Shown piece by piece: positions 1 to 53,395 of a stretch of DNA of 64,000 nucleotides. The notes below the pieces were generated by a model. The model saw only the letters and a program-made list of their open reading frames with translations. It did no database searches and was not told where the DNA came from. Made by a program: the position numbers and the translations under genes. This DNA comes from a phage. Numbering within the stretch: position 1 is the first letter of the stretch; every line of letters starts with the position of its first letter. The stretch lies in the sequence record PZ445453.1; one strand, written 5' to 3'.

Positions 1-200
1 TCATTACTAAGCTAAATATAATCTATCTAACCTTTAAAACTATAACTATAATCTATCGAATTGTTGCACAAAGTAACTATTAAATTGTTAGTAACATTAC
101 TAAATAATTAATATCCTATCTATTTATGATCTAATCTTTACCTTCCTATCTATTACCTAAATAACCATTTCATACAGAAATCATTTCATACAATAACTAT
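1..200. repeat. AT-rich leader with short direct repeats (CTATCT x4-5; CATTTCATACA x2)
   Basis: Motifs read at ~24-36, 49-61, 113-126, 142-156 and 165-198; no ORF. Confidence 0.5.
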
Positions 201-259
201 AACAAGAAATATAATTAGCAAGCGTATCATTAGCAGCCTATGCCGGACACATAGGCGGC

Positions 260-400
260 TAATAATAACGCAACTACACACCCCACATAATAACCATCAC
301 CGATAGTTATTATTTGTGCTTATGTAGCTTGCAACAATTGCAAGCGCAACAATATACATGGTATATTGTATCCCTTACATTGTTGCGGTGCGTTATTATT
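260..400. repeat. inverted-repeat / palindrome cluster
   Basis: TAATAATAACGCAAC (260-274) vs GTTGCGGTGCGTTATTATT (382-400); internal palindromes TTGCAACAATTGCAA and CAATATAC-ATG-GTATATTG. Confidence 0.5.
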
Positions 401-704
401 AGCTAATATTTGGAACATTGGCTATAATATAAGCTACATATAATAAGCTATTCAATAATAAACATCGTGAACAATGACATTGATGATCATAATGCGCCAC
501 CTTCCAGGGGACGCTATGTGAACACAAAGAAATCTTTCTTGTCAAGAAAAATATCACCATTATTGCGCAAAATTATTTATATCTGAATAGATGGTTTTTC
601 ATACTATTGCCCCATATAACCTATCATTTGTTGAGCCTATTCTCTTAAAAGCGCAATAAATCAGAATTATCTTGATTTTTAGGTAGTTTTATAGTATAGA
701 AAAT

Positions 705-913
705 ATGCAAATGATAATCATTATCAGCTATCTTCCACGGGTGGCACTATTTCACGCCAGATCATTTCATTTGGCAAGGTGTAGATAGATGTTTAGACTT
801 GCCAAGCCATTGATTTACTTAGAATTTATCTGTTTTGTTGTGAGTAGTACCTTTCTTGCTCAGAAAATAATCAAAAGTCTTATAAGTCATTGAATGATAA
901 TGCAAATGATAAT
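705..913. repeat. 14-bp direct repeat ATGCAAATGATAAT (705-718 and 900-913)
   Basis: Exact repeat read in sequence; both copies next to ATGATAAT-like half repeats. Confidence 0.55.
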
Positions 914-1042
914 AATTCTCATTGATATTTGAGGGGGACGGTCGGCAGAAATCGGGGGGCGCTGAAAATCGCGTTAAGCACCTCTCGCAAGCGAGCAGTA
1001 TTTTGCGGCAAGTTATTGATATTATTGGCTTTACGCTTATGA

Positions 1043-1131
1043 AAAGGGGTGTGTCGAAATAAATCGGGTATACCGGAAAATTTTTGTGGTATAGATATTT
1101 ATTTGTCTATATTATGTACAAAGGGGTGTGT
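1043..1131. repeat. direct repeat AAAGGGGTGTGT (1043-1054 and 1120-1131)
   Basis: Exact 12-mer twice, each followed by (C/T)(G/A)AAA(A)TAA, just upstream of the first ORF. Confidence 0.5.
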
Positions 1132-1224
1132 TAAAAATAATAGGTATATATAGAATAATTGATAGGGAAATCCTATACTAATTCCTCCATTAATGATGTT
1201 TCTATGTTACTGTCCTTGTAATAG

Positions 1225-1647
1225 ATGAAAAGACGCTATATGATGTGTGGCATGAAACGTAAATTTATAAAGGAGTCTGATATGTGTGTTCCTCTTAGCA
1301 GTCCACTGCTGTTAGAATTTTACAAAGCATGGATGGAAGATCATTCCTCAATGCATCGTGAGAATGTTGGTTTGTGTAATTGCCTTATGGATTACCTGGC
1401 AACCACTATGTCAAAGAAAAAACCTACGGAAGAAGATATAGAATATTTCAAGATGGTTCGTAGCAAAACGCTGGAAGAGATGAAACTGCAATTCACGTGT
1501 GCTGGGCTATCCTCCTTCCTACCCTTTAATTATGATCTTCTGTGTTATGAAGATGAAGGTAAGACACATTCTTGCCATACCAACCCAAAGAGATTGCAGT
1601 GGGTGAAAGATAGAATCGAAGATGCAAATAATGCTTGCATTGAATAG
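1225..1647 (+). CDS. hypothetical protein, paralog family A member 1
   Basis: 140-aa ORF; shares LLxFY...GLCxCL...PFN...KRxxWVxDR pattern with 3575..3943 and 4567..5151. Confidence 0.55.
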   Translation: MKRRYMMCGMKRKFIKESDMCVPLSSPLLLEFYKAWMEDHSSMHRENVGLCNCLMDYLATTMSKKKPTEEDIEYFKMVRSKTLEEMKLQFTCAGLSSFLPFNYDLLCYEDEGKTHSCHTNPKRLQWVKDRIEDANNACIE

Positions 1648-1717
1648 AAATGTCTGTACACTGTGTTCCATAAGATATGCAATATCGCGCATAACAAACT
1701 ACTAATGAGAGGTGTAA

Positions 1718-2176
1718 ATGAAAACTGTATCTTTGTATCTTGCTAACACGGAGCGTGTACATAATCTTGTAAAAGAATGCGGTGTGAGTGTTCAATTTAA
1801 CATAGGAAAGCCTTCCGTGGTGACAGGCAGTGAGATGTGTGTTATTGATTTCCTCAATGAATATTTTCGTGGAAAACCTATTGCTCGTCACTTCATTCAA
1901 GAAATGCGAGATGTTCTACAGGATTATGAATTCTACCCAGAAATTTGTGAACGCTATGAAACGATTCTTAGTTCTGTAGAAGATCCAGATACTAGTGAAA
2001 CAGGTGCTTCCCACTTGCTGTGGATGTTGAATGAAATTCAGGATGGGTGTAATGGTATGTCTGAAACCAAACGCCATCGTTGGCTAGGCTATATTCAGGG
2101 TGTTATGGTTATGAAAAACCTTATTACAGTGAATGATGAACGTAACGCTACACGCCCCGTCTTTAATGGAGCATAA
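1718..2176 (+). CDS. hypothetical protein
   Basis: 152-aa ORF in co-directional packed block. Confidence 0.55.
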   Translation: MKTVSLYLANTERVHNLVKECGVSVQFNIGKPSVVTGSEMCVIDFLNEYFRGKPIARHFIQEMRDVLQDYEFYPEICERYETILSSVEDPDTSETGASHLLWMLNEIQDGCNGMSETKRHRWLGYIQGVMVMKNLITVNDERNATRPVFNGA

Positions 2177-2177
2177 C

Positions 2178-2393
2178 ATGAAAAGCATTAGGGTGTGTAT
2201 TGAAAATAATTGTGGCTATCTGGGGTTGACACACGTTGCTTTCCCTCTTATATTGGATGCCGATATAGCTTACAGCGGAGTTGCTTATGTGTCATTCAAG
2301 ACAATGAGCCAAGTACCTGGCTGGAATTGGGAAGTAGTTGATGTTGTTGAAGGAGAAGACTATGTTTTCCTTCCACACGAATATACTGTTTAA
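2178..2393 (+). CDS. hypothetical protein
   Basis: ORF trimmed to ATG at 2178 (GGAG 6 nt upstream, directly after upstream stop). Confidence 0.45.
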   Translation: MKSIRVCIENNCGYLGLTHVAFPLILDADIAYSGVAYVSFKTMSQVPGWNWEVVDVVEGEDYVFLPHEYTV

Positions 2394-2408
2394 AGAGAGG
2401 AAAAGAAG

Positions 2409-2591
2409 ATGGATAAACAAACTACCGTGTACTTAGTAACAAAGAATACCCTAGACTGGAACCAATGCAGCACTGTCCCTTACAAGATCTGTGCAACATT
2501 AGAACTAGCACAACGTGCAGAAGCAGAAGTGGATGCCATGCAAATGCAACACAGCTATGGTGAAATCATTCCTTTTACTATTGAACAATAA
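2409..2591 (+). CDS. hypothetical protein
   Basis: 60-aa ORF, RBS-like AGAGG upstream. Confidence 0.45.
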   Translation: MDKQTTVYLVTKNTLDWNQCSTVPYKICATLELAQRAEAEVDAMQMQHSYGEIIPFTIEQ

Positions 2592-2602
2592 GGATTTGTG
2601 TA

Positions 2603-3055
2603 ATGTTTGAAATTGGTAAAGTGTATCGTTTTAAGAACGCATCTTATATCCGTAAGTTTGCTAATGTGTCTGAGTGCAATAGCAGGATTGCTTCTTTCTT
2701 AGGTGATTCCTGTTTTCGTGTATTAGATGTGGATGACTGGTATGGTGTCACTTCTTTGCAATCCTTAGCAGGAGAGCAAGAAATTATCACTCAAAATGAA
2801 GGAGACTTTGTTCTGTGTTACACCTTGCTTGCAGAAGCTGAGTTTGAATACTTTGTAGAAGTATTAGAAGAAGCACCAAAAAGTAAGCATGAAGAGAAAT
2901 ACCTGCTTGTAGTGGATGGAGTTCCAATTGTGGAAACCATCTCCCGTGAGGAAGTTGAAAAAGAGGCAAAACGTTACAAGCTGGATCGTACACAGAGTGT
3001 AGTTGAAGTCTATTCTCTTGTTGGTGTTGCAGATGTTCATGTGAACATTGTATAA
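2603..3055 (+). CDS. hypothetical protein
   Basis: 150-aa ORF. Confidence 0.55.
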   Translation: MFEIGKVYRFKNASYIRKFANVSECNSRIASFLGDSCFRVLDVDDWYGVTSLQSLAGEQEIITQNEGDFVLCYTLLAEAEFEYFVEVLEEAPKSKHEEKYLLVVDGVPIVETISREEVEKEAKRYKLDRTQSVVEVYSLVGVADVHVNIV

Positions 3056-3574: not shown

Positions 3575-3943
3575 ATGCAAGAGAATAATAAAGTGTGTAA
3601 CATGAAAAGCAGCCCCTATTTGCTACAATTTTATGAGTGGTGGTTGGAACAAGAAGATACAAACTTTAGCAAAAAGCACTATGGTCTTTGCACGTGTCTT
3701 GTAGACTTCTTATACAACATTGCTTGGATAAAAGATGTTGAAAATGTATCAAAACTCCAATCCTCTGTACGAGAGGAAATGAAGGAACAGTTTAAGAAAG
3801 CGGGTTTGAACCATTTACATCCATTTAATACAGATTTCTCACATTACTTTACAGAAACAGAGTTAGGCATTGCACACCTTAACAAAGAACGTGTACAATG
3901 GGTGATTGATCGTATTCGTGATATGGAGGAATACAATGGTTAA
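3575..3943 (+). CDS. hypothetical protein, paralog family A member 2
   Basis: 122-aa ORF; family A motifs (LLQFYEWW, GLCTCL, HPFN, ERVQWVIDRI). Confidence 0.55.
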   Translation: MQENNKVCNMKSSPYLLQFYEWWLEQEDTNFSKKHYGLCTCLVDFLYNIAWIKDVENVSKLQSSVREEMKEQFKKAGLNHLHPFNTDFSHYFTETELGIAHLNKERVQWVIDRIRDMEEYNG

Positions 3944-4566: not shown

Positions 4567-5151
4567 ATGAGTAAAATTATACCAAGCAGTTATGAATTAT
4601 TACAGTTTTATGTATATTATATAGACTGGGTTACTAGATCAAATGTTAAAGACAATGCGATGTTTAGTAAAAACATCTGTTTAACAGAAAGTATCTTCCG
4701 TTACTGGCACACAGGCAGAAAGTGTACACACAGTGAAGCTATGCGCATTGTAGGTGAATACCTAGAGCAATTGCAAAAAGCAGAACTTCCTGTCCTTCAC
4801 CCATTCAATGAATCTAAAGAAGAATTAGAACAAGAGTGTAGGGAAGGTAAATGCCATTTGAATGAAAAACGTATTGAATGGGTAAGGCAACGTTTAGCCG
4901 ATGCAGGAAAGTCTCCTAGTGACTCTGACTATACGTGGTACGATGTAGAGGGTTTAGTTCAAGGTTTTGAGGCTTGTGCTATAAATAATACCAACTTTGC
5001 CAAAGTTTTATGCGAGGTTTATGACCTGGCAGATAAAATCCGAAATCAAGGATGGAAACAAGAGCATAAAGAATCATATGAACGCCTTGACAAGATTTTC
5101 AAACAGATCTATTCTAACCACAAAGAGATGTTCCAAATGGAGGATGTGTAA
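4567..5151 (+). CDS. hypothetical protein, paralog family A member 3
   Basis: 194-aa ORF; family A motifs (LLQFY, ICLTE, HPFN, EKRIEWVRQRL). Confidence 0.55.
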   Translation: MSKIIPSSYELLQFYVYYIDWVTRSNVKDNAMFSKNICLTESIFRYWHTGRKCTHSEAMRIVGEYLEQLQKAELPVLHPFNESKEELEQECREGKCHLNEKRIEWVRQRLADAGKSPSDSDYTWYDVEGLVQGFEACAINNTNFAKVLCEVYDLADKIRNQGWKQEHKESYERLDKIFKQIYSNHKEMFQMEDV

Positions 5152-50387: not shown

Positions 50388-50463
50388 GGTTCCATAGCTC
50401 ACTGACGAGAGCGCACACCTCATAAGTGTCGAGGGCAGGGATTGTAACCCTGGGGAACCACCA
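50388..50463 (+). tRNA. tRNA-Met/Ile2-type (anticodon CAT), non-canonical T-loop
   Basis: Acceptor GGTTCCA/GGGAACC, D-stem GCTC/GAGC, anticodon loop CTCATAA, T-stem CAGGG/CCCTG with loop ATTGTAA, encoded CCA. Confidence 0.5.
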
Positions 50464-50494
50464 TTTAAAAGGAGGTGCTATGCATCTCCTATAT

Positions 50495-50580
50495 GCAAGT
50501 GTGGTGGAATTGGTGATACACATTGTGCTTAAAACGCAACGCTTAAATGATTGAGGGTTCGAATCCCTCCACTTGCACCA
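50495..50580 (+). tRNA. tRNA-Leu (anticodon TAA), type II
   Basis: Perfect 7-bp acceptor, anticodon stem TTGTG/CGCAA loop CTTAAAA, 13-nt variable arm, T-arm GAGGG-TTCGAAT-CCCTC, CCA. Confidence 0.75.
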
Positions 50581-50621
50581 ATCTAGGCTTCAATTTAAAT
50601 AATATTTTTAGTAAAAATATC

Positions 50622-50650
50622 TTGACATCTACTTAGTTTTTTGTTATAGT
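50622..50650 (+). promoter_or_regulatory. sigma70-like promoter TTGACA-N17-TATAGT
   Basis: Read upstream of tRNA-like gene at 50662. Confidence 0.55.
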
Positions 50651-50661
50651 TATTGTGAAAA

Positions 50662-50743
50662 CGGGGTGTATCTCACCTGACTTCTAATCAGGCGTTAACC
50701 GAGTAATTGGAGTATGCAGGTTCGAATCCTGTCACCCCGACCA
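50662..50743 (+). tRNA. tRNA-like gene with Arg(TCT) anticodon arm, atypical
   Basis: Acceptor CGGGGTG/CACCCCG, T-arm GCAGG-TTCGAAT-CCTGT and CCA are canonical, but only 7 nt separate acceptor from anticodon stem and a 23-nt variable region follows. Confidence 0.4.
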
Positions 50744-50761
50744 AAAAGTTTTAAAAACTAC

Positions 50762-50791
50762 TTGACAAGCAAGATAGTTTTATGTTAGAGT
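50762..50791 (+). promoter_or_regulatory. promoter TTGACA-N18-(TG)-TAGAGT
   Basis: cTTGACAagcaagatagttttaTGtTAGAGT. Confidence 0.45.
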
Positions 50792-50806
50792 TAAAATATG
50801 ATAACG

Positions 50807-50896
50807 GGAAGGTAGGGCGCAGCGGTGCGCAACCAGGTTTGAACCCTGGCCCATTGTAGCGATACGGTGATGGTTCGACTCCATTATCTTCCTCCA
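50807..50896 (+). tRNA. tRNA-Ser (anticodon TGA), type II
   Basis: Acceptor GGAAGGT/ATCTTCC, anticodon stem CCAGG/CCTGG loop TTTGAAC, long variable arm, T-loop TTCGACT, CCA. Confidence 0.7.
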
Positions 50897-50941
50897 AATT
50901 CAATTAGTAACAGATTCAGGTTGTTTTGAATAATTAAAAAC

Positions 50942-51027
50942 GGTAGATTGGTGAAATGGTAGCCACAACAGTTTGCTAAACTGTCGTCGGAAACGGCGTG
51001 TAGGTTCAAGTCCTACATCTACCGCCA
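50942..51027 (+). tRNA. tRNA-Ser (anticodon GCT), type II
   Basis: Acceptor GGTAGAT/ATCTACC, anticodon stem ACAGT/ACTGT loop TTGCTAA, variable hairpin, T-arm GTAGG-TTCAAGT-CCTAC, CCA. Confidence 0.75.
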
Positions 51028-51166
51028 AGTTATCTTTAATGTAGCTTGTACTCTTACTTTAGCAGAGTAAATCTTCGGCAAGTGGCAGTAACCACTTTAC
51101 CGATATCCCATAGTCAAGTGCCGCAAACACTGGCTATTTTAAAGATAATTTATACGAGGAGGATGT

Positions 51167-51547
51167 ATGCCAAGTAATGATTATATGCGGGAATACATGA
51201 AAACTCGGTGGCAGAAGCGAAGAGCTTCCGCAATCCTCCAGCTTGGAGGTAAATGTGTTAATTGTGGGTCTGTAGATGACTTGGAATTTGATCATAAAGA
51301 TTCAAGCGAGAAGAAGTTTTATATTAGTCGAATGAGTTCATGTTCGGAGGCTAAATGGCAAGAAGAACTTGCCAAATGTCAACTTTTGTGTCATGCTTGT
51401 CACATGAAGAAGACAAGAATTTCCCAAGACATGGGAAACAGAATTAGAACCACGGTGTGTGTTTGCGGAGCAGTATTCCATAGTACAAAGGCTTATGCTG
51501 GACATACACGGTGGTGTAAAGAGTATGCATCGTTAGCCAAGCGGTAA
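51167..51547 (+). CDS. HNH homing-type endonuclease inside tRNA cluster
   Basis: CVNCGS...EFDHKD...LLCHACH; last 21 nt overlap the start of tRNA-Lys. Confidence 0.7.
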   Translation: MPSNDYMREYMKTRWQKRRASAILQLGGKCVNCGSVDDLEFDHKDSSEKKFYISRMSSCSEAKWQEELAKCQLLCHACHMKKTRISQDMGNRIRTTVCVCGAVFHSTKAYAGHTRWCKEYASLAKR

Positions 51548-51601
51548 GGCACTTGACTTTTAATCAAGGGAGCGAAGGTTCGAATCCTTCACGATGTACC
51601 A
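51527..51601 (+). tRNA. tRNA-Lys (anticodon TTT)
   Basis: Acceptor GCATCGT/ACGATGT, anticodon stem CTTGA/TCAAG loop CTTTTAA, T-arm GAAGG-TTCGAAT-CCTTC, CCA. Confidence 0.75.
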
Positions 51602-51606
51602 AACAC

Positions 51607-51693
51607 GTAGGTATCGCATAGCGGCAATTGCTGGAGACTGTAAATCTCTTGCCCTTCGGGGCTTCGTTGGTTCGAGTCCAACTACCTGCACCA
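51607..51693 (+). tRNA. tRNA-Tyr (anticodon GTA), type II
   Basis: Acceptor GTAGGTA/TACCTGC, anticodon stem GGAGA/TCTCT loop CTGTAAA, long variable arm, T-loop TTCGAGT, CCA. Confidence 0.7.
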
Positions 51694-51700
51694 AATTAAA

Positions 51701-51785
51701 GATGGATTGGCCTAGTGGTTGGGCGACGGACTGTTAATCCGTGAACGAAAGTTCTAGCAAGGTTCAAATCCTTGATCCATCGCCA
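51701..51785 (+). tRNA. tRNA-Asn (anticodon GTT) with unusually long variable arm
   Basis: Perfect acceptor GATGGAT/ATCCATC, anticodon stem ACGGA/TCCGT loop CTGTTAA, ~15-nt variable hairpin GAAC-GAAA-GTTC, T-arm CAAGG-TTCAAAT-CCTTG, CCA. Confidence 0.6.
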
Positions 51786-51864
51786 AATAGTGCTTGTAGA
51801 GTTAATAGAAACCTCTAGAATTTTCTAGAATTGTAGGTATCAAATCCTACCAAGCAAATATTTT

Positions 51865-51939
51865 GCTCCTATCGTATAACGGCTATTACGGTTGCCTTGT
51901 AAGCAACTTATCAGGGTTCGAGTCCTTGTGGGAGCACCA
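51865..51939 (+). tRNA. tRNA-Thr (anticodon TGT)
   Basis: Acceptor GCTCCTA/TGGGAGC, anticodon stem GTTGC/GCAAC loop CTTGTAA, T-loop TTCGAGT, CCA. Confidence 0.75.
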
Positions 51940-51962
51940 ATTTTAACTCTAAAGGAGTATAT

Positions 51963-52286
51963 GTGACAGAAAAAGAGTTAGAGAAATATTTTAATATCAA
52001 TGTTTTCGATGGTTTTGATGACATTGAAGATGTTGAAAGATATTATGAAGTAGAGTTAGATAAGGATAACATTGTAATTCTTTCTGCCACTTATGATTGT
52101 GCATATTATGAAGGTGAATCTCACGTTTATTTTTATGATATGAAAACATCTTTGTTTTATGAAGTACACGCATATCATTGTTCTTGTTATGGCTTAGAAG
52201 GTCAGTGGGAACCTGAAGAAATAGGTGATTTGGACTTCACTGTTGCATATCTAAACAGACGTGGTGCATCTACTATTTTAAAATAA
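51963..52286 (+). CDS. hypothetical protein inside tRNA cluster
   Basis: 107-aa ORF with AAGGAG RBS. Confidence 0.5.
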   Translation: MTEKELEKYFNINVFDGFDDIEDVERYYEVELDKDNIVILSATYDCAYYEGESHVYFYDMKTSLFYEVHAYHCSCYGLEGQWEPEEIGDLDFTVAYLNRRGASTILK

Positions 52287-52300
52287 ATATCAAAAGCCTC

Positions 52301-52330
52301 TTGACAAAGGGGCTAATAATATGTTAGAGT
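52301..52330 (+). promoter_or_regulatory. promoter TTGACA-N18-(TG)-TAGAGT
   Basis: cTTGACAaaggggctaataataTGtTAGAGT upstream of tRNA-Gly. Confidence 0.45.
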
Positions 52331-52341
52331 AATATTGTTAA

Positions 52342-52416
52342 GCGGGTATAGTGTTAATGGTAGCATATGAGGTTTCCACCCTCCAGGTGCAGGTTCAAGT
52401 CCTGTTACTCGCTCCA
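52342..52416 (+). tRNA. tRNA-Gly (anticodon TCC)
   Basis: Acceptor GCGGGTA/TACTCGC, anticodon loop TTTCCAC, T-arm GCAGG-TTCAAGT-CCTGT, CCA. Confidence 0.65.
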
Positions 52417-52515
52417 AGATTATTTAAATGGAATCGCTAGAGAAAATTTCTCTTTTCGCTCATGGTTTTCTCCTTCAAACTCTAGCGGTTCTTTTTAAGT
52501 GATTTTTAGTTTTAT

Positions 52516-52590
52516 TGGAGATTAGCCTAGTGGGAAGGCAACGGCCTTTGAAGTCGTGATGACTAGGTTCGATTCCTAGATCTCCAGCCA
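52516..52590 (+). tRNA. tRNA-Gln (anticodon TTG)
   Basis: U1-A72 acceptor TGGAGAT/ATCTCCA, anticodon stem ACGGC/GTCGT loop CTTTGAA, T-arm CTAGG-TTCGATT-CCTAG, CCA. Confidence 0.75.
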
Positions 52591-52597
52591 AGATTTA

Positions 52598-52673
52598 CAG
52601 TGCGTAGCGCAGTTGGTAGCGTGGGAGCTTTGGACGCTTCAGGTCGCAGGTTCGAGTCCTGCCGCACTGACCA
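52598..52673 (+). tRNA. tRNA-Pro (anticodon TGG)
   Basis: Acceptor CAGTGCG/CGCACTG, D-arm GCGC-AGTTGGTA-GCGT, anticodon loop TTTGGAC, T-arm GCAGG-TTCGAGT-CCTGC, CCA. Confidence 0.78.
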
Positions 52674-52678
52674 AATTT

Positions 52679-52753
52679 GCAGAGATAGCTGAGACGGATT
52701 AGTGCTACCCTGAAAAGGTAGAAAGGATGGATCGTTACCATCTCTCTGCACCA
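52679..52753 (+). tRNA. tRNA-Phe (anticodon GAA), atypical T-loop
   Basis: Acceptor GCAGAGA/TCTCTGC, anticodon stem CTACC/GGTAG loop CTGAAAA, T-arm GATGG-ATCGTTA-CCATC, CCA. Confidence 0.65.
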
Positions 52754-52830
52754 AATAACACCATCCAAGGAGTAGACTTGGTTAACTGTCAATAGCACAT
52801 TGAGGCTTCTTACAGTGGTGTACTTATTAT

Positions 52831-52915
52831 GGCTAAGTGGTGGAATGGTATACACGATACGCTTAGAACGTATTGCCCCAAGGGATTGTGAGTTCGAGTC
52901 TCACCTTAGCTACCA
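52831..52915 (+). tRNA. tRNA-Leu (anticodon TAG), type II
   Basis: Acceptor GGCTAAG/CTTAGCT, anticodon stem ATACG/CGTAT loop CTTAGAA, 14-nt variable arm, T-arm GTGAG-TTCGAGT-CTCAC, CCA. Confidence 0.75.
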
Positions 52916-53003
52916 TATCTAAGAGATATCATAGGGTTTGCAACGGATATCTACCGTCCTGTTAAGGATACCACGCCAAGACGGGTTATAAAGGGTTAGC
53001 CAT

Positions 53004-53079
53004 TGATAGTGTGAAGCTGGCGTTTCGAGTGCTTTCATAAGGCATTGCGAGAAGAGTTCGATTCTCTTACTATCAACCA
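53004..53079 (+). tRNA. tRNA with CAT anticodon (Met or Ile2-lysidine type)
   Basis: Acceptor TGATAGT/ACTATCA, anticodon loop TTCATAA, T-arm AAGAG-TTCGATT-CTCTT, CCA. Confidence 0.55.
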
Positions 53080-53094
53080 AATTACTACAGATTG

Positions 53095-53173
53095 CGCGGG
53101 ATAGAGGAGTCTGGTCGTCCTCGCCAGTTTCATATGCTGGAGATCGTAGGTTCAAATCCTACTCCCGCCTCCA
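53095..53173 (+). tRNA. tRNA with CAT anticodon and unpaired 1:72
   Basis: Acceptor CGCGGGA/TCCCGCC with C1xC72 mismatch, D-stem GAGG/CCTC, anticodon stem CCAGT/GCTGG loop TTCATAT, T-arm GTAGG-TTCAAAT-CCTAC, CCA. Confidence 0.55.
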
Positions 53174-53231
53174 ATAAATACCTCCCTTCTGGTGTAATGA
53201 TTAAGTTACATTGACACTTCAAGGAACTCAT

Positions 53232-53314
53232 AGCCGGGTAGATTTAAAAGAGTATGGTACTCAATATGGCTCCAAACCATAGATCAAGGGGTTCGATTCC
53301 TCACCTTGCTGCCA
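53232..53314 (+). tRNA. tRNA-Trp (anticodon CCA); 5' boundary uncertain
   Basis: Perfect anticodon arm TATGG-CTCCAAA-CCATA (53265-53281), T-loop TTCGATT, 3' acceptor CCTTGCT + G + CCA; best 5' partner AGCCGGG at 53232 implies ~7 extra nt in D region. Confidence 0.45.
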
Positions 53315-53319
53315 ATTAT

Positions 53320-53395
53320 TGTGGTATCGTACAGATGGTTAGTACACTCGACCGATAATCGAGAAACAACGGTTCGACTCCGTTTACCACGACCA
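53320..53395 (+). tRNA. tRNA-Ile (anticodon GAT)
   Basis: Acceptor TGTGGTA/TACCACG, D-arm GTAC-AGATGGTTA-GTAC, anticodon stem CTCGA/TCGAG loop CCGATAA, T-arm AACGG-TTCGACT-CCGTT, CCA. Confidence 0.7.

What the first reader, a model, noticed from the sequence alone, without database searches (positions are those of the whole stretch)
1..1224. 1.2-kb non-coding leader with iteron-like repeats, palindromes and a GC-rich island
Upstream of the first early ORF there is no coding potential. Instead there are four to five CTATCT(A) copies and two CATTTCATACA copies in the first 200 nt, a large inverted-repeat and palindrome cluster at 260-400, an 8-bp inverted repeat TTGGCAAG/CTTGCCAA around 771-805, the 14-mer ATGCAAATGATAAT twice, AAAGGGGTGTGT twice, and a GC-rich patch at 935-1015 containing the small hairpin CTCGC-AA-GCGAG. 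This is consistent with an origin, a packaging site, clustered early promoters, or a genome terminus.
Basis: seen in the sequence. Interest (0 to 1): 0.45.

Follow-up and report, generated by a model that had tools for sequence, protein, structure and literature searches.

The report
Phage genome-end region with terminal repeat
This gene-free stretch is where the linear DNA of a phi92-like E. coli phage begins and ends: it holds the ~343-bp terminal repeat (already annotated in phi92), bracketed by a conserved cut-site motif and preceded by a conserved multi-hairpin element for which I found no published description.

Summary
The window is Escherichia phage JohannJBalmer (Justusliebigvirus, phi92-like). 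The listed features are real, and the gene-free gap is larger than reported: about 1.7 kb, window −453 to 1281.

Main result: phi92's annotated 343-bp direct terminal repeat (DTR) maps without gaps to window 634–976. The ends of BME3, PD06 and, in a second genus, Mt1B1_P17 fall within 1 nt of the same positions. Both boundaries carry the same motif, GTTR^AGCM-N2-3-TCTC. It occurs only twice in the 144.8-kb genome.

Covariation across four lineages supports it strongly, and it matches no Rfam family. rV5-like phages carry an analogous nested-hairpin element about 210 bp from their DTR.

The "ATGCAAATGATAAT" repeats belong to Fur-box-like palindromes, one a perfect 7-1-7 Fur box.

The CTATCT "iterons" lie in the least conserved segment. 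Only its AT-rich, G-poor composition is conserved.

I found no DnaA boxes, no conserved promoter and no skew signal for an origin.

Verdict: this is the terminus and concatemer-junction region of a DTR phage, a known kind. The roles of its sub-elements are inferred, not shown.

The parts
1..215 (.). AT-rich, G-depleted tract (continues upstream to about window -125). It contains lineage-specific short repeats: CTATCTA at 23, 116 and 146, and CATTTCATACA at 166 and 182.
   Evidence: GC 22% and G only 4.9% on the + strand. The same skewed composition (GC 19-31%, G 5-12%) is present in all clades, although the sequence does not align (identity 0-0.15). The repeats are locally above chance.
234..405 (.). 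Conserved hairpin cluster. P0 hairpin: 236-242/250-256. It is followed by a four-way junction closed by the 15-bp stem P1 (258-272/389-403). The junction contains P2 (274-278/323-327) with hairpin P2b (290-298/302-310), the invariant palindromic hairpin P3 GCTTGCAA-NNN-TTGCAAGC (327-334/338-345), and P4 (345-353/379-387). Whether it acts as RNA or DNA, and on which strand, is undetermined.
   Evidence: Fold z is -5.5, -7.8 and -7.1. In 16 sequences of four lineages, 97.4% of cells are paired and 12 pairs show double compensatory changes. The covariation score is 0.240 vs 0.080 in shuffles (0/500 reach it) and 0.014-0.054 in slid controls. A within-genus compensatory change occurs in P1 (arall). 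The element is single-copy in the genome. No Rfam match.
406..629 (.). Variable spacer between the hairpin cluster and the DTR. It includes the spurious annotated ORF bas62_0142 (467-586).
   Evidence: Low cross-clade identity, 0.20-0.50. The ORF is frameshifted in arall and broken in other clades, and has no PHROG hit.
630..644 (+). Left DTR boundary motif GTTG^AGCCTATTCTC. The inferred cut lies between 633 and 634 and creates the left physical end.
   Evidence: TGTTGAGC is invariant in 12 phages. phi92 DTR-L starts at the base matching window 634. The PD06 record ends at 633. The Mt1B1_P17 left end starts right after TGTTG.
634..976 (.). Homolog of the 343-bp direct terminal repeat (DTR). 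It is present once here because the assembly is collapsed and permuted.
   Evidence: 97.4% identical, without gaps, to phi92's annotated DTR-L/DTR-R. BME3 has a 342-bp DTR by PhageTerm (PMC12210895), and its record end matches window 975. Motif-to-motif spacing is conserved at 329-353 bp in nearly all lineages.
707..726 (.). Fur-box-like palindrome. It matches the 19-bp E. coli consensus at 17/19 (707-725) and is a perfect 7-1-7 box, TGATAATCATTATCA (712-726).
   Evidence: Unique in 64 kb, expected 0.04. It is the only perfect 7-1-7 box in the genome. The core AATGATAATCATT occurs 3 times in the genome, all within this gap.
771..815 (.). 8-bp inverted repeat TTGGCAAG (771-778) / CTTGCCAA (798-805), overlapping an IHF-consensus site (803-815, - strand).
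   Evidence: A 7-bp version, TTTGGCA/TGCCAAA, is kept in the Klebsiella clade; only the right arm is kept in Phapecoctavirus.
886..930 (.).
   Evidence: Cross-clade identity is 0.74-0.78. ATTGAAT and TTGATATTTG are invariant. It is a relaxed 7-1-7 match.
973..996 (+). Right DTR boundary motif GTTA^AGCACCTCTC (inferred cut 976/977, or 975/976), followed by the small hairpin CTCGC-AA-GCGAG (985-996).
   Evidence: CGCGTT-AGCA is invariant. phi92 DTR-R ends at 976. BME3 and Mt1B1_P17 end 1 nt earlier. GTT[AG]AGC[AC]N2-3TCTC occurs exactly twice in the 144.8-kb genome, at 630 and 973, both on the + strand.
977..1281 (+). Leader between the DTR and the first gene. It holds AAAGGGGTGTGT at 1043 and 1120, an IHF-consensus site (1009-1021, - strand) and a conserved box at 1133-1171 (…AAAAATAAT.GGTATATAT.G.ATAATTGATAGG).
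   Evidence: No sigma70 promoter is conserved in position. The first real gene is annotated from 1282, and its product matches phrog_2510 of unknown function.

Best explanation
Window 1-1281, plus about 450 nt upstream of the window, is the terminus (concatemer-junction) region of a phi92-like myovirus that packages unit-length DNA with short direct terminal repeats.

Shown by homology: window 634-976 is the about 343-bp DTR. In virion DNA it would be present at both ends, so the left physical end starts at 634 and the right physical end stops at 976.

Inferred: the packaging nuclease cuts inside the same directly oriented motif, GTTR^AGCM-N2-3-TCTC, at both boundaries. One cut starts a genome and the other finishes it after one full length plus the repeat.

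Inferred with lower confidence: the flanking conserved non-coding elements act in cis on this process. These are the four-way hairpin cluster 230 bp upstream, the G-poor AT-rich tract, the Fur-like and IHF-like sites and other palindromes. They could mark the junction for terminase and host factors. They could also provide a fold-back or priming structure in single-stranded DNA that allows the single junction copy of the repeat to be duplicated, as has been proposed for T7.
For: Identity and context
- 100% identity to JohannJBalmer.
- The gap is gene-free in 12 relatives of three clades and aligns throughout.

DTR
- phi92 annotates DTR-L and DTR-R. They map without gaps to 634-976 at 97.4% identity.
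- BME3 has a 342-bp DTR by PhageTerm (PMC12210895), and its record end matches window 975.
- The PD06 record ends at 633.
- FKP3 has short DTRs by PhageTerm, lying inside the same interval.
- Mt1B1_P17, in a different genus, has a 328-bp DTR whose ends sit at the same positions in the motif.
- PMC12695924 states that Stephanstirmvirinae genomes end in DTRs.

Cut motif
- It occurs exactly twice in the genome, at the two boundaries and in the same orientation.
- It is invariant across the 12 aligned phages, and the motif pair recurs in the other loci scanned.
- Spacing is conserved at 329-353 bp in nearly all of them.

Hairpin cluster
- Strong covariation and single copy.
- rV5-like LL12 has a nested-hairpin element (z -12.5) about 210 nt from its mapped DTR, although its flanking genes are oriented differently. 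That element is conserved in about 120 records.
Against: - No read or end data exist here for JohannJBalmer itself. The DTR is inferred by homology.
- FKP3's PhageTerm boundaries lie 13-14 nt inside the motif positions on both sides, and the right end differs by 1 nt between records. The exact cut chemistry is therefore unsettled.
- The core GTTRAGCM alone is too short to be unique; TGTTGAGC occurs 3 times in the genome. The extended pattern was derived after seeing the two sites.
- Some lineages carry extra upstream TGTTGAGC copies.
- Nothing tested here links the hairpin cluster, the Fur-like sites or the AT-rich tract to packaging. The cluster could instead be an RNA or an origin element.
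- Two records may have been oriented after phi92, so they may not be fully independent.
Confidence: 0.85

Rival explanations
1. The hairpin cluster (234-405) is a gene for a structured non-coding RNA on one strand, for example a packaging, regulatory or priming RNA, rather than a DNA-level element.
For: The long-range stem P1 encloses about 116 nt, so it can only form in a single strand, and it covaries. The - strand folds better in 16/16 (P2b) and 14/16 (P4) copies, with z -7.8 vs -5.5. About 5 single-sided changes give A·C on + (G·U on -), against about 2 that give G·T on +.
Against: No Rfam match. No promoter or terminator is conserved next to it on either strand. Helices P0, P1 and P3 are 100% Watson-Crick in 16 sequences with no wobble intermediates, which fits a constraint on DNA or on both strands. 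The P3 stem is invariant, like a protein-binding palindrome. The 5-to-2 strand bias is not significant. A structurally analogous element in rV5-like phages keeps its distance to the DTR even though the neighbouring genes are oriented differently.
Confidence: 0.2
2. The region is, or also contains, the origin of replication. The AT-rich tract would be the unwinding element, the short repeats and palindromes the initiator sites, and the hairpin cluster a single-strand priming signal.
For: The architecture resembles origins: a 340-nt tract of 22% GC, locally repeated 7-mers, several conserved palindromes upstream and a conserved structure that needs single-stranded DNA.
Against: There are no DnaA boxes. 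Cumulative GC skew has its extremes 12 and 127 kb from the DTR, not here; in rV5 skew changes also track transcription direction (PMC3606486). The repeats are 7-mers at irregular spacing (93 and 30 nt) and are not conserved between genera. No initiator gene is identified next to the region. This reading does not exclude the terminus explanation.
Confidence: 0.15
3. The conserved palindromes are operators of a transcription switch. Host Fur, or a phage repressor with a similar specificity, would bind the four TGAKAAT-N-ATTMTYA sites and control promoters in and around the DTR.
For: One site is a perfect 7-1-7 Fur box and a 17/19 match to the 19-bp consensus, unique in the genome. The 13-nt Fur core occurs 3 times in the genome, all here. 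The sites are conserved in position in other genera. The site at -151 abuts a weak promoter-like match.
Against: No promoter is conserved across clades at any of these sites. The most conserved site (907) tends towards a symmetric variant, TGAGAAT-N-ATTCTCA, in the Klebsiella clade, which suggests a different binding protein. LL12 has none of these sites. I found no paper on Fur sites in lytic phage termini. Binding was not tested.
Confidence: 0.25
4. The hairpin and palindrome region is a DNA-entry control signal like the injection-stop signal of phage T5. It would act when the end carrying it enters the cell.
For: T5's signal lies in a 1.66-kb non-coding, highly conserved region full of nested inverted repeats and palindromes near a terminal repeat boundary (bioRxiv 10.1101/866236). 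Here the right end of the genome is lined with small genes that each have a strong sigma70 promoter, like a first-entering early region.
Against: The paired DnaA boxes that characterise the T5 region are absent. Two-step injection is not known for this group. Which end enters first is unknown. Nothing here tests entry.
Confidence: 0.07

Closest known systems
phi92 direct terminal repeats (RefSeq NC_023693 features PHI92_DTR-L and PHI92_DTR-R) and the PhageTerm-mapped DTR of BME3
   Same: Same genus, same syntenic gene-free gap. 97.4% identity over all 343 bp, with the same boundary sequences.
   Different: The JohannJBalmer record is permuted, holds one copy and annotates nothing here except a spurious 39-aa ORF. 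The boundary motif, the hairpin cluster and the Fur-like sites are not annotated in the phi92 features I retrieved for this region. The phi92 paper was not available to read.
Concatemer junction of phage T7/T3 (short DTR, exact ends, repeat duplication)
   Same: Short DTR with sequence-specific ends. A DNA hairpin containing the repeat is reported during T7 infection and is used in models of repeat duplication (as summarised in PMC4281155). From my own recollection, not checked here: T7 has arrays of short 7-bp repeats next to the repeat, and an inverted repeat to the left of the junction.
   Different: This is a myovirus of 145 kb with an unrelated sequence. Both boundaries carry the same directly oriented motif. 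The structure is a covarying four-way junction of about 170 nt rather than a simple palindrome. No phage RNA polymerase pause site is involved.
Injection-stop (iss) region of phage T5
   Same: A non-coding stretch of over 1 kb near a terminal repeat boundary, conserved better than the neighbouring genes, with nested inverted repeats, palindromes and sites for a host DNA-binding protein.
   Different: The T5 region lies mostly inside a 10-kb repeat and carries paired DnaA boxes. Here the repeat is 343 bp, DnaA boxes are absent, and the host-factor-like sites resemble Fur and IHF sites.
Non-coding DTR region of rV5-like phages (Vequintavirinae; LL12)
   Same: A large gene-free region (2.5 kb) around a mapped 459-bp DTR, with a G-poor tract beside the DTR and a nested long-range hairpin element about 210 nt from a DTR boundary. 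The rV5 genome map marks a 'non-coding' box without assigning a function.
   Different: No detectable sequence similarity. The flanking genes are convergent, the element lies on the other side of the DTR in the record's orientation, and there are no Fur-like boxes. The core is invariant, so it gives no covariation information.
E. coli Fur box (19-bp consensus GATAATGATAATCATTATC; 7-1-7 form TGATAATnATTATCA)
   Same: 17/19 match and a perfect 7-1-7 at 707-726, plus three related sites.
   Different: The sites are in a lytic phage's terminal region, with no demonstrable promoter overlap. Binding by Fur was not tested.

Membership tests
Short direct-terminal-repeat (DTR) genome terminus | The same sequence is present at both physical ends of virion DNA. 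| not testable with these tools
   No reads or virion DNA for JohannJBalmer. Shown for relatives: phi92 annotation, BME3 by PhageTerm, and the Mt1B1_P17 record, which has identical 328-bp ends.
Short direct-terminal-repeat (DTR) genome terminus | A homologous repeat sequence at the syntenic position. | tested here: met
   The phi92 DTR maps to window 634-976, 343/343 nt aligned at 97.4%, in the same gene-free gap.
Short direct-terminal-repeat (DTR) genome terminus | Fixed, sequence-specific ends rather than permuted ends. | tested here: met
   The ends of phi92, BME3, PD06 and Mt1B1_P17 fall within 1 nt of the same positions in an invariant motif. FKP3 ends are 13-14 nt inside.
Iteron-type replication origin | Several direct repeats of about 17-22 bp at regular spacing, conserved with their initiator. 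| tested here: not met
   The repeats are 7-mers at spacings of 93 and 30 nt. They lie in the least conserved segment and are replaced by other short words in other genera.
Iteron-type replication origin | DnaA boxes, or a skew or strand switch marking the origin. | tested here: not met
   0 DnaA boxes in the gap. There is no cumulative GC-skew extremum here.
Iteron-type replication origin | An AT-rich unwinding element. | tested here: met
   A tract of about 340 nt with 22% GC. The low-GC composition (19-31%) is conserved in all clades.
Known structured RNA family (Rfam 15) | Match to a curated covariance model. | tested here: not met
   Only two chance-level hits at E 0.08-0.5, neither on the element. 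Nothing on the LL12 element.
Fur-regulated operator | Match to the Fur-box consensus. | tested here: met
   17/19 at 707-725 with 0.04 expected, and a perfect 7-1-7 at 712-726.
Fur-regulated operator | Overlap with a promoter. | tested here: inconclusive
   Only weak single-genome promoter-like matches; none is conserved across clades.
Fur-regulated operator | Binding by Fur and iron-dependent regulation. | not testable with these tools
   This needs a gel shift or footprint and infection of a fur mutant.
T5-type injection-stop region | A conserved non-coding region with nested inverted repeats near a terminal repeat boundary. | tested here: met
   compared with the description.
T5-type injection-stop region | Paired DnaA boxes within the inverted repeats. 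| tested here: not met
   No DnaA boxes.
T7-type concatemer junction | An inverted repeat or hairpin next to the junction, used in repeat duplication. | tested here: inconclusive
   A covarying hairpin cluster lies 230 bp upstream of the DTR. Its use in duplication is untested. The T7 details come from PMC4281155 and from my own recollection.

The most novel reading that the evidence does not exclude
The covarying four-way hairpin junction about 230 bp from the DTR, together with its structural counterpart about 210 bp from the DTR of rV5-like phages, may be a previously undescribed class of cis-acting terminus element in large DTR myoviruses. It would work in single-stranded form, as fold-back DNA or as an RNA, to duplicate or process the terminal repeat. 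Host Fur (and IHF) may be recruited to the phage ends as architectural or regulatory factors.
Probability: 0.3. Interest if true: 0.6.

Novelty: new member of a known kind. Interest (0 to 1): 0.42.

Why it matters
- **Physical ends.** It fixes the likely physical ends of a BASEL-collection phage whose public record is arbitrarily permuted.
- **Predicting termini from sequence.** Paired GTTRAGC boundary motifs 329–353 bp apart give a sequence-only rule. It could predict the termini of well over a hundred phi92-like and phAPEC8-like genomes, many of them therapy candidates. Correct ends matter for genome rebooting, engineering and comparative annotation.
- **Over-annotation.** Some records place up to nine "hypothetical proteins" on this non-coding DNA.
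- **Testable leads.** How short terminal repeats are duplicated is poorly understood outside T7. The hairpin cluster and the Fur-like sites are concrete places to start.

Tried and rejected
- **Rfam.** Scans of window 1–3000 and of the LL12 region found nothing relevant.
- **GC-rich patch as a structured element.** Rejected, z +0.65.
- **ATTAGCA as a shared recognition word.** Rejected, 11 copies vs 13.6 expected.
- **CTATCTA as a genome-wide motif.** Not enriched.
- **Strict-register boundary pattern GTTRAGCMNNTCT.** It matched only the right boundary. A 2–3-nt variable spacer was needed.
- **Promoters.** Single-genome predictions are at chance level, 24 found vs 20.9 expected, and none is conserved across clades.
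- **AAAGGGGTGTGT and TAATTGATAG as recurring promoter motifs.** They do not recur elsewhere in the genome.
- **Origin.** No DnaA boxes and no skew extremum.
- **Small ORFs.** Not conserved and no PHROG hits.
- **More diverse copies of the hairpin cluster.** IMG/VR gave only 4. Metagenomes gave 11 hits, of which 3 were chance.
- **Covariation in the rV5-type element.** Impossible, because its core is invariant.
- **Literature.** No phage transcriptome was found for this group, nothing on Fur sites in lytic phages, and the phi92 genome paper is not held.
- **RNA strand.** G·U versus A·C counts are about 5 vs 2, too few to decide.
Full report
**Identity and context.** Window 1–1300 is 100% identical to Escherichia phage JohannJBalmer (MZ501084.1, from position 90312). 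This phage belongs to Stephanstirmvirinae, genus Justusliebigvirus, the phi92-like phages. The window continues across the ends of that permuted record. Genes on both sides of the region are on the + strand. The last solid upstream gene (bas62_0140) ends at window −454 and is followed by an intrinsic terminator at −438 to −420. The first downstream gene is annotated from 1282. The gene-free stretch is therefore about 1.7 kb, not 1.2 kb, and the window cuts it.

Two tiny ORFs are annotated inside it: bas62_0141, and bas62_0142 at 467–586. These and four other ORFs of 34–53 aa checked in the gap are interrupted by stops or frameshifts in other clades. Several are broken even within the genus. 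The four that were searched hit no PHROG family. The claim of no coding potential holds.

**Check of the listed features.** All are present where stated.
- CTATCTA has 3 exact copies in the first 152 nt plus one variant. It is not enriched genome-wide (13 vs 9.8 expected). It is enriched within the tract even given the local composition.
- CATTTCATACA has two copies, the only ones in the genome.
- AAAGGGGTGTGT has two copies against 0.26 expected.
- The 8-bp inverted repeat at 771/798 is weak on its own.
- The "GC-rich island" is about 41% GC in a 31% background and is not structured (z +0.65).
- The palindrome cluster is far beyond chance.

**What the region is.** The phi92 RefSeq record annotates 343-bp left and right direct terminal repeats. 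The two copies are identical, and they map without gaps to window 634–976 at 97.4% identity. Several other lines support this:
- BME3 (same genus) has 342-bp DTRs by PhageTerm (PMC12210895). Its record end corresponds to window 975.
- The PD06 contig ends exactly at window 633.
- FKP3, a divergent Klebsiella phage, was reported as linear with short DTRs (PMC11663894). Its 317-bp repeat aligns inside the same interval.
- Mt1B1_P17, from the genus Phapecoctavirus, carries identical 328-bp ends.
- A recent paper states that Stephanstirmvirinae genomes end in DTRs (PMC12695924).

The window holds a single copy because the assembly is collapsed. The region is thus the genome terminus, which in replicating concatemers is the junction between successive genomes.

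**Cut sites.** In a 12-phage alignment of the whole gap, TGTTGAGC is invariant at the left boundary and CGCGTT-AGCA at the right.
- The phi92 and Mt1B1_P17 left ends start right after GTTG.
- The phi92 right end stops after GTTA. BME3 and Mt1B1_P17 stop one base earlier.
- Both boundaries therefore carry GTTR^AGC in the same orientation and are cut at the same place.
- The extended pattern GTT[AG]AGC[AC]N2–3TCTC occurs exactly twice in the 144.8-kb genome, at 630 and 973.
- Motif-to-motif spacing is 343–344 bp in Justusliebigvirus and the Klebsiella clade, 329–332 bp in Phapecoctavirus, and 343–353 bp in most metagenomic relatives.

Caveats: the pattern was derived from the two sites themselves. 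FKP3's boundaries lie 13–14 nt inside on both sides, possibly a library effect. Some lineages have extra upstream TGTTGAGC copies.

**Conservation map.** Conservation peaks across clades are:
- −203 to −129;
- the hairpin cluster (222–396);
- both DTR boundaries (622–696 and 947–1021);
- 797–821;
- 872–921;
- 1147–1171.

Its composition, however, is conserved: 200–350 nt, 19–31% GC, and only 5–12% G on the + strand in every clade. Each clade has its own short repeated words.

**The hairpin cluster (234–405).** It consists of a hairpin (P0) followed by a four-way junction. The junction is closed by a 15-bp stem (P1) that encloses 116 nt.
- In 16 distinct sequences from four lineages, including a new metagenomic lineage, 97.4% of cells are paired.
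- 12 pairs show double compensatory changes. The covariation score is 0.240, against 0.080 in shuffles (0 of 500 reach it) and 0.014–0.054 in slid controls.
- P0, P1 and P3 are 100% Watson-Crick.
- arall carries a within-genus compensated change in P1.
- The P3 stem GCTTGCAA/TTGCAAGC never varies while its loop does, as expected of a protein-binding palindrome.
- The element is single-copy and matches no Rfam family.

Because P1 spans 116 nt, the structure must form in a single strand, either RNA or single-stranded DNA. The − strand folds better throughout. Single-sided changes favour G·U on the − strand by about 5 to 2, which is too few to decide. No promoter or terminator is conserved beside the element.

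rV5-like phages give an independent hint that the element belongs to the terminus rather than to gene expression. LL12 has a 2.5-kb gene-free region around its mapped 459-bp DTR (PMC6658697). That region has a G-poor tract beside the DTR and a nested hairpin element (two perfect 18-nt long-range stems, z −12.5) about 210 nt from a DTR boundary. Yet the flanking genes there are convergent. The element is conserved in about 120 records, and its core is invariant. The rV5 paper shows a "non-coding" box without giving it a function (PMC3606486).

**Protein-site candidates.**
- The site at 707–726 matches the E. coli Fur box 17/19 (0.04 expected). It is the only perfect 7-1-7 Fur box in the genome.
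- The 13-nt Fur core occurs three times in the genome, all in this gap.
- The sites are conserved in position in other genera.
- Two of the genome's 15 IHF-consensus sites lie at 803 and 1009.
- A conserved palindrome, TATGCA-N-TGCATA, sits between the two upstream Fur-like sites.

Whether host Fur or IHF bind was not tested.

**What is not supported.**
- *Origin:* no DnaA boxes, and no skew extremum at the region.
- *Clustered early promoters:* promoter-like matches are at chance level, and none is conserved in position. By contrast, the small genes upstream each have a near-consensus TTGACA-17-TAnAAT promoter followed by a conserved stem-loop.

**Mechanism proposed.**
- *Shown by homology:* window 634–976 is the terminal repeat, and the ends lie in a conserved motif.
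- *Inferred:* one nuclease specificity serves both boundaries. A genome is started at the left motif and finished at the right motif of the next junction.
- *Inferred, about 0.3–0.4:* the hairpin cluster and neighbouring sites act in cis. They would either assemble the packaging complex with host factors, or provide a fold-back or priming structure that lets the single junction copy of the repeat be duplicated. A hairpin containing the repeat is reported in T7 infection (as summarised in PMC4281155). Further T7 details are my own recollection.

The T5 injection-stop region is the closest described example of a large, conserved, non-coding, nested-palindrome region near a terminus (bioRxiv 10.1101/866236). 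Its hallmark DnaA boxes are absent here.

**Verdict.** The finding is real, and it is explained as the DTR terminus region of a phi92-like phage. That is a known kind, already annotated in phi92. Three things appear new: the shared boundary motif, the covarying hairpin junction with its counterpart in rV5-like phages, and the Fur-like sites. They are worth testing, but their functions are inferred.

Noticed in passing
L001 368-5184 (JohannJBalmer record 82.7-87.5 kb, upstream of the window): Almost every small gene in the roughly 8-kb block before the gap has its own 81-91-nt spacer. Each spacer holds a near-consensus sigma70 promoter (TTGACA-17-TAnAAT) followed by a conserved stem-loop (ATAGGGCGG..AAT.G..CCGCC). 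The phAPEC8 record annotates the same two parts as a 'host promoter' and a 'PHIRE promoter'. They look like mobile promoter-plus-stem-loop cassettes in front of early genes.
   Followed up: partly
L033 3137-3320 (phage LL12, MH491969 105636-105819): rV5-like phages carry a very stable nested-hairpin element: two perfect 18-nt long-range stems plus a 9-bp hairpin, with DNA fold z -12.5. It lies about 210 nt from the mapped 459-bp DTR inside a 2.5-kb gene-free region. It is unannotated in nearly all of the 25 records listed (one labels it 'terminator'), out of about 120 with a match. Its core is invariant in 5 divergent phages.
   Followed up: partly
window -204, -146 (L001 7796, 7854), 712-726, 907-921: Four Fur-box-like palindromes lie in the terminal region of a lytic phage, one of them a perfect 7-1-7 Fur box. 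They are conserved in position in other genera. I found no literature on this.
   Followed up: partly
window 803-815 and 1009-1021 (- strand): Two of the genome's 15 matches to the IHF consensus WATCAANNNNTTR lie here, one inside the DTR and one just after it. Both are in conserved blocks that share an ATTGAT word, which recurs at 808, 920, 1013 and 1159 (with ATTGAA at 888).
   Followed up: no
L009 2580-3396 (FKP3 record PP895363 1-817): The FKP3 record contains its 317-bp DTR at positions 1-317 and again at 501-817, as well as at the far end. This looks like an artefact of rearranging the assembly rather than a real tandem copy.
   Followed up: partly
Hits H4-H7, H45-H46, H88 and H102: Many GenBank records named 'Campylobacter phage' (MG0656xx, host C. 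jejuni, unannotated) are about 95-99% identical to these E. coli phages over the queried regions. This suggests mislabelled or contaminant genomes.
   Followed up: no
window 1225-1647, 3575-3943, 4567-5151: Three genes just after the DTR encode paralogous proteins that share an N-terminal motif (…LLEFYKAWMED…GLCNCL…, …LLQFYEWWLEQ…GLCTCL…, …LLQFYVYYIDW…). The inny record assigns the corresponding genes to one VOG (VOG7392). The first matches phrog_2510, of unknown function.
   Followed up: no
window 50388-53395: A cluster of 16 tRNA genes on the + strand, including three tRNA-Met.
   Followed up: no
Records VivaForever, 92CQ, J-01, Eryne, Nernie, Antha and others: Several relatives annotate 7-9 'hypothetical proteins' across this non-coding terminus region. 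Comparison shows no conserved ORF, so these are probably over-annotations.
   Followed up: partly
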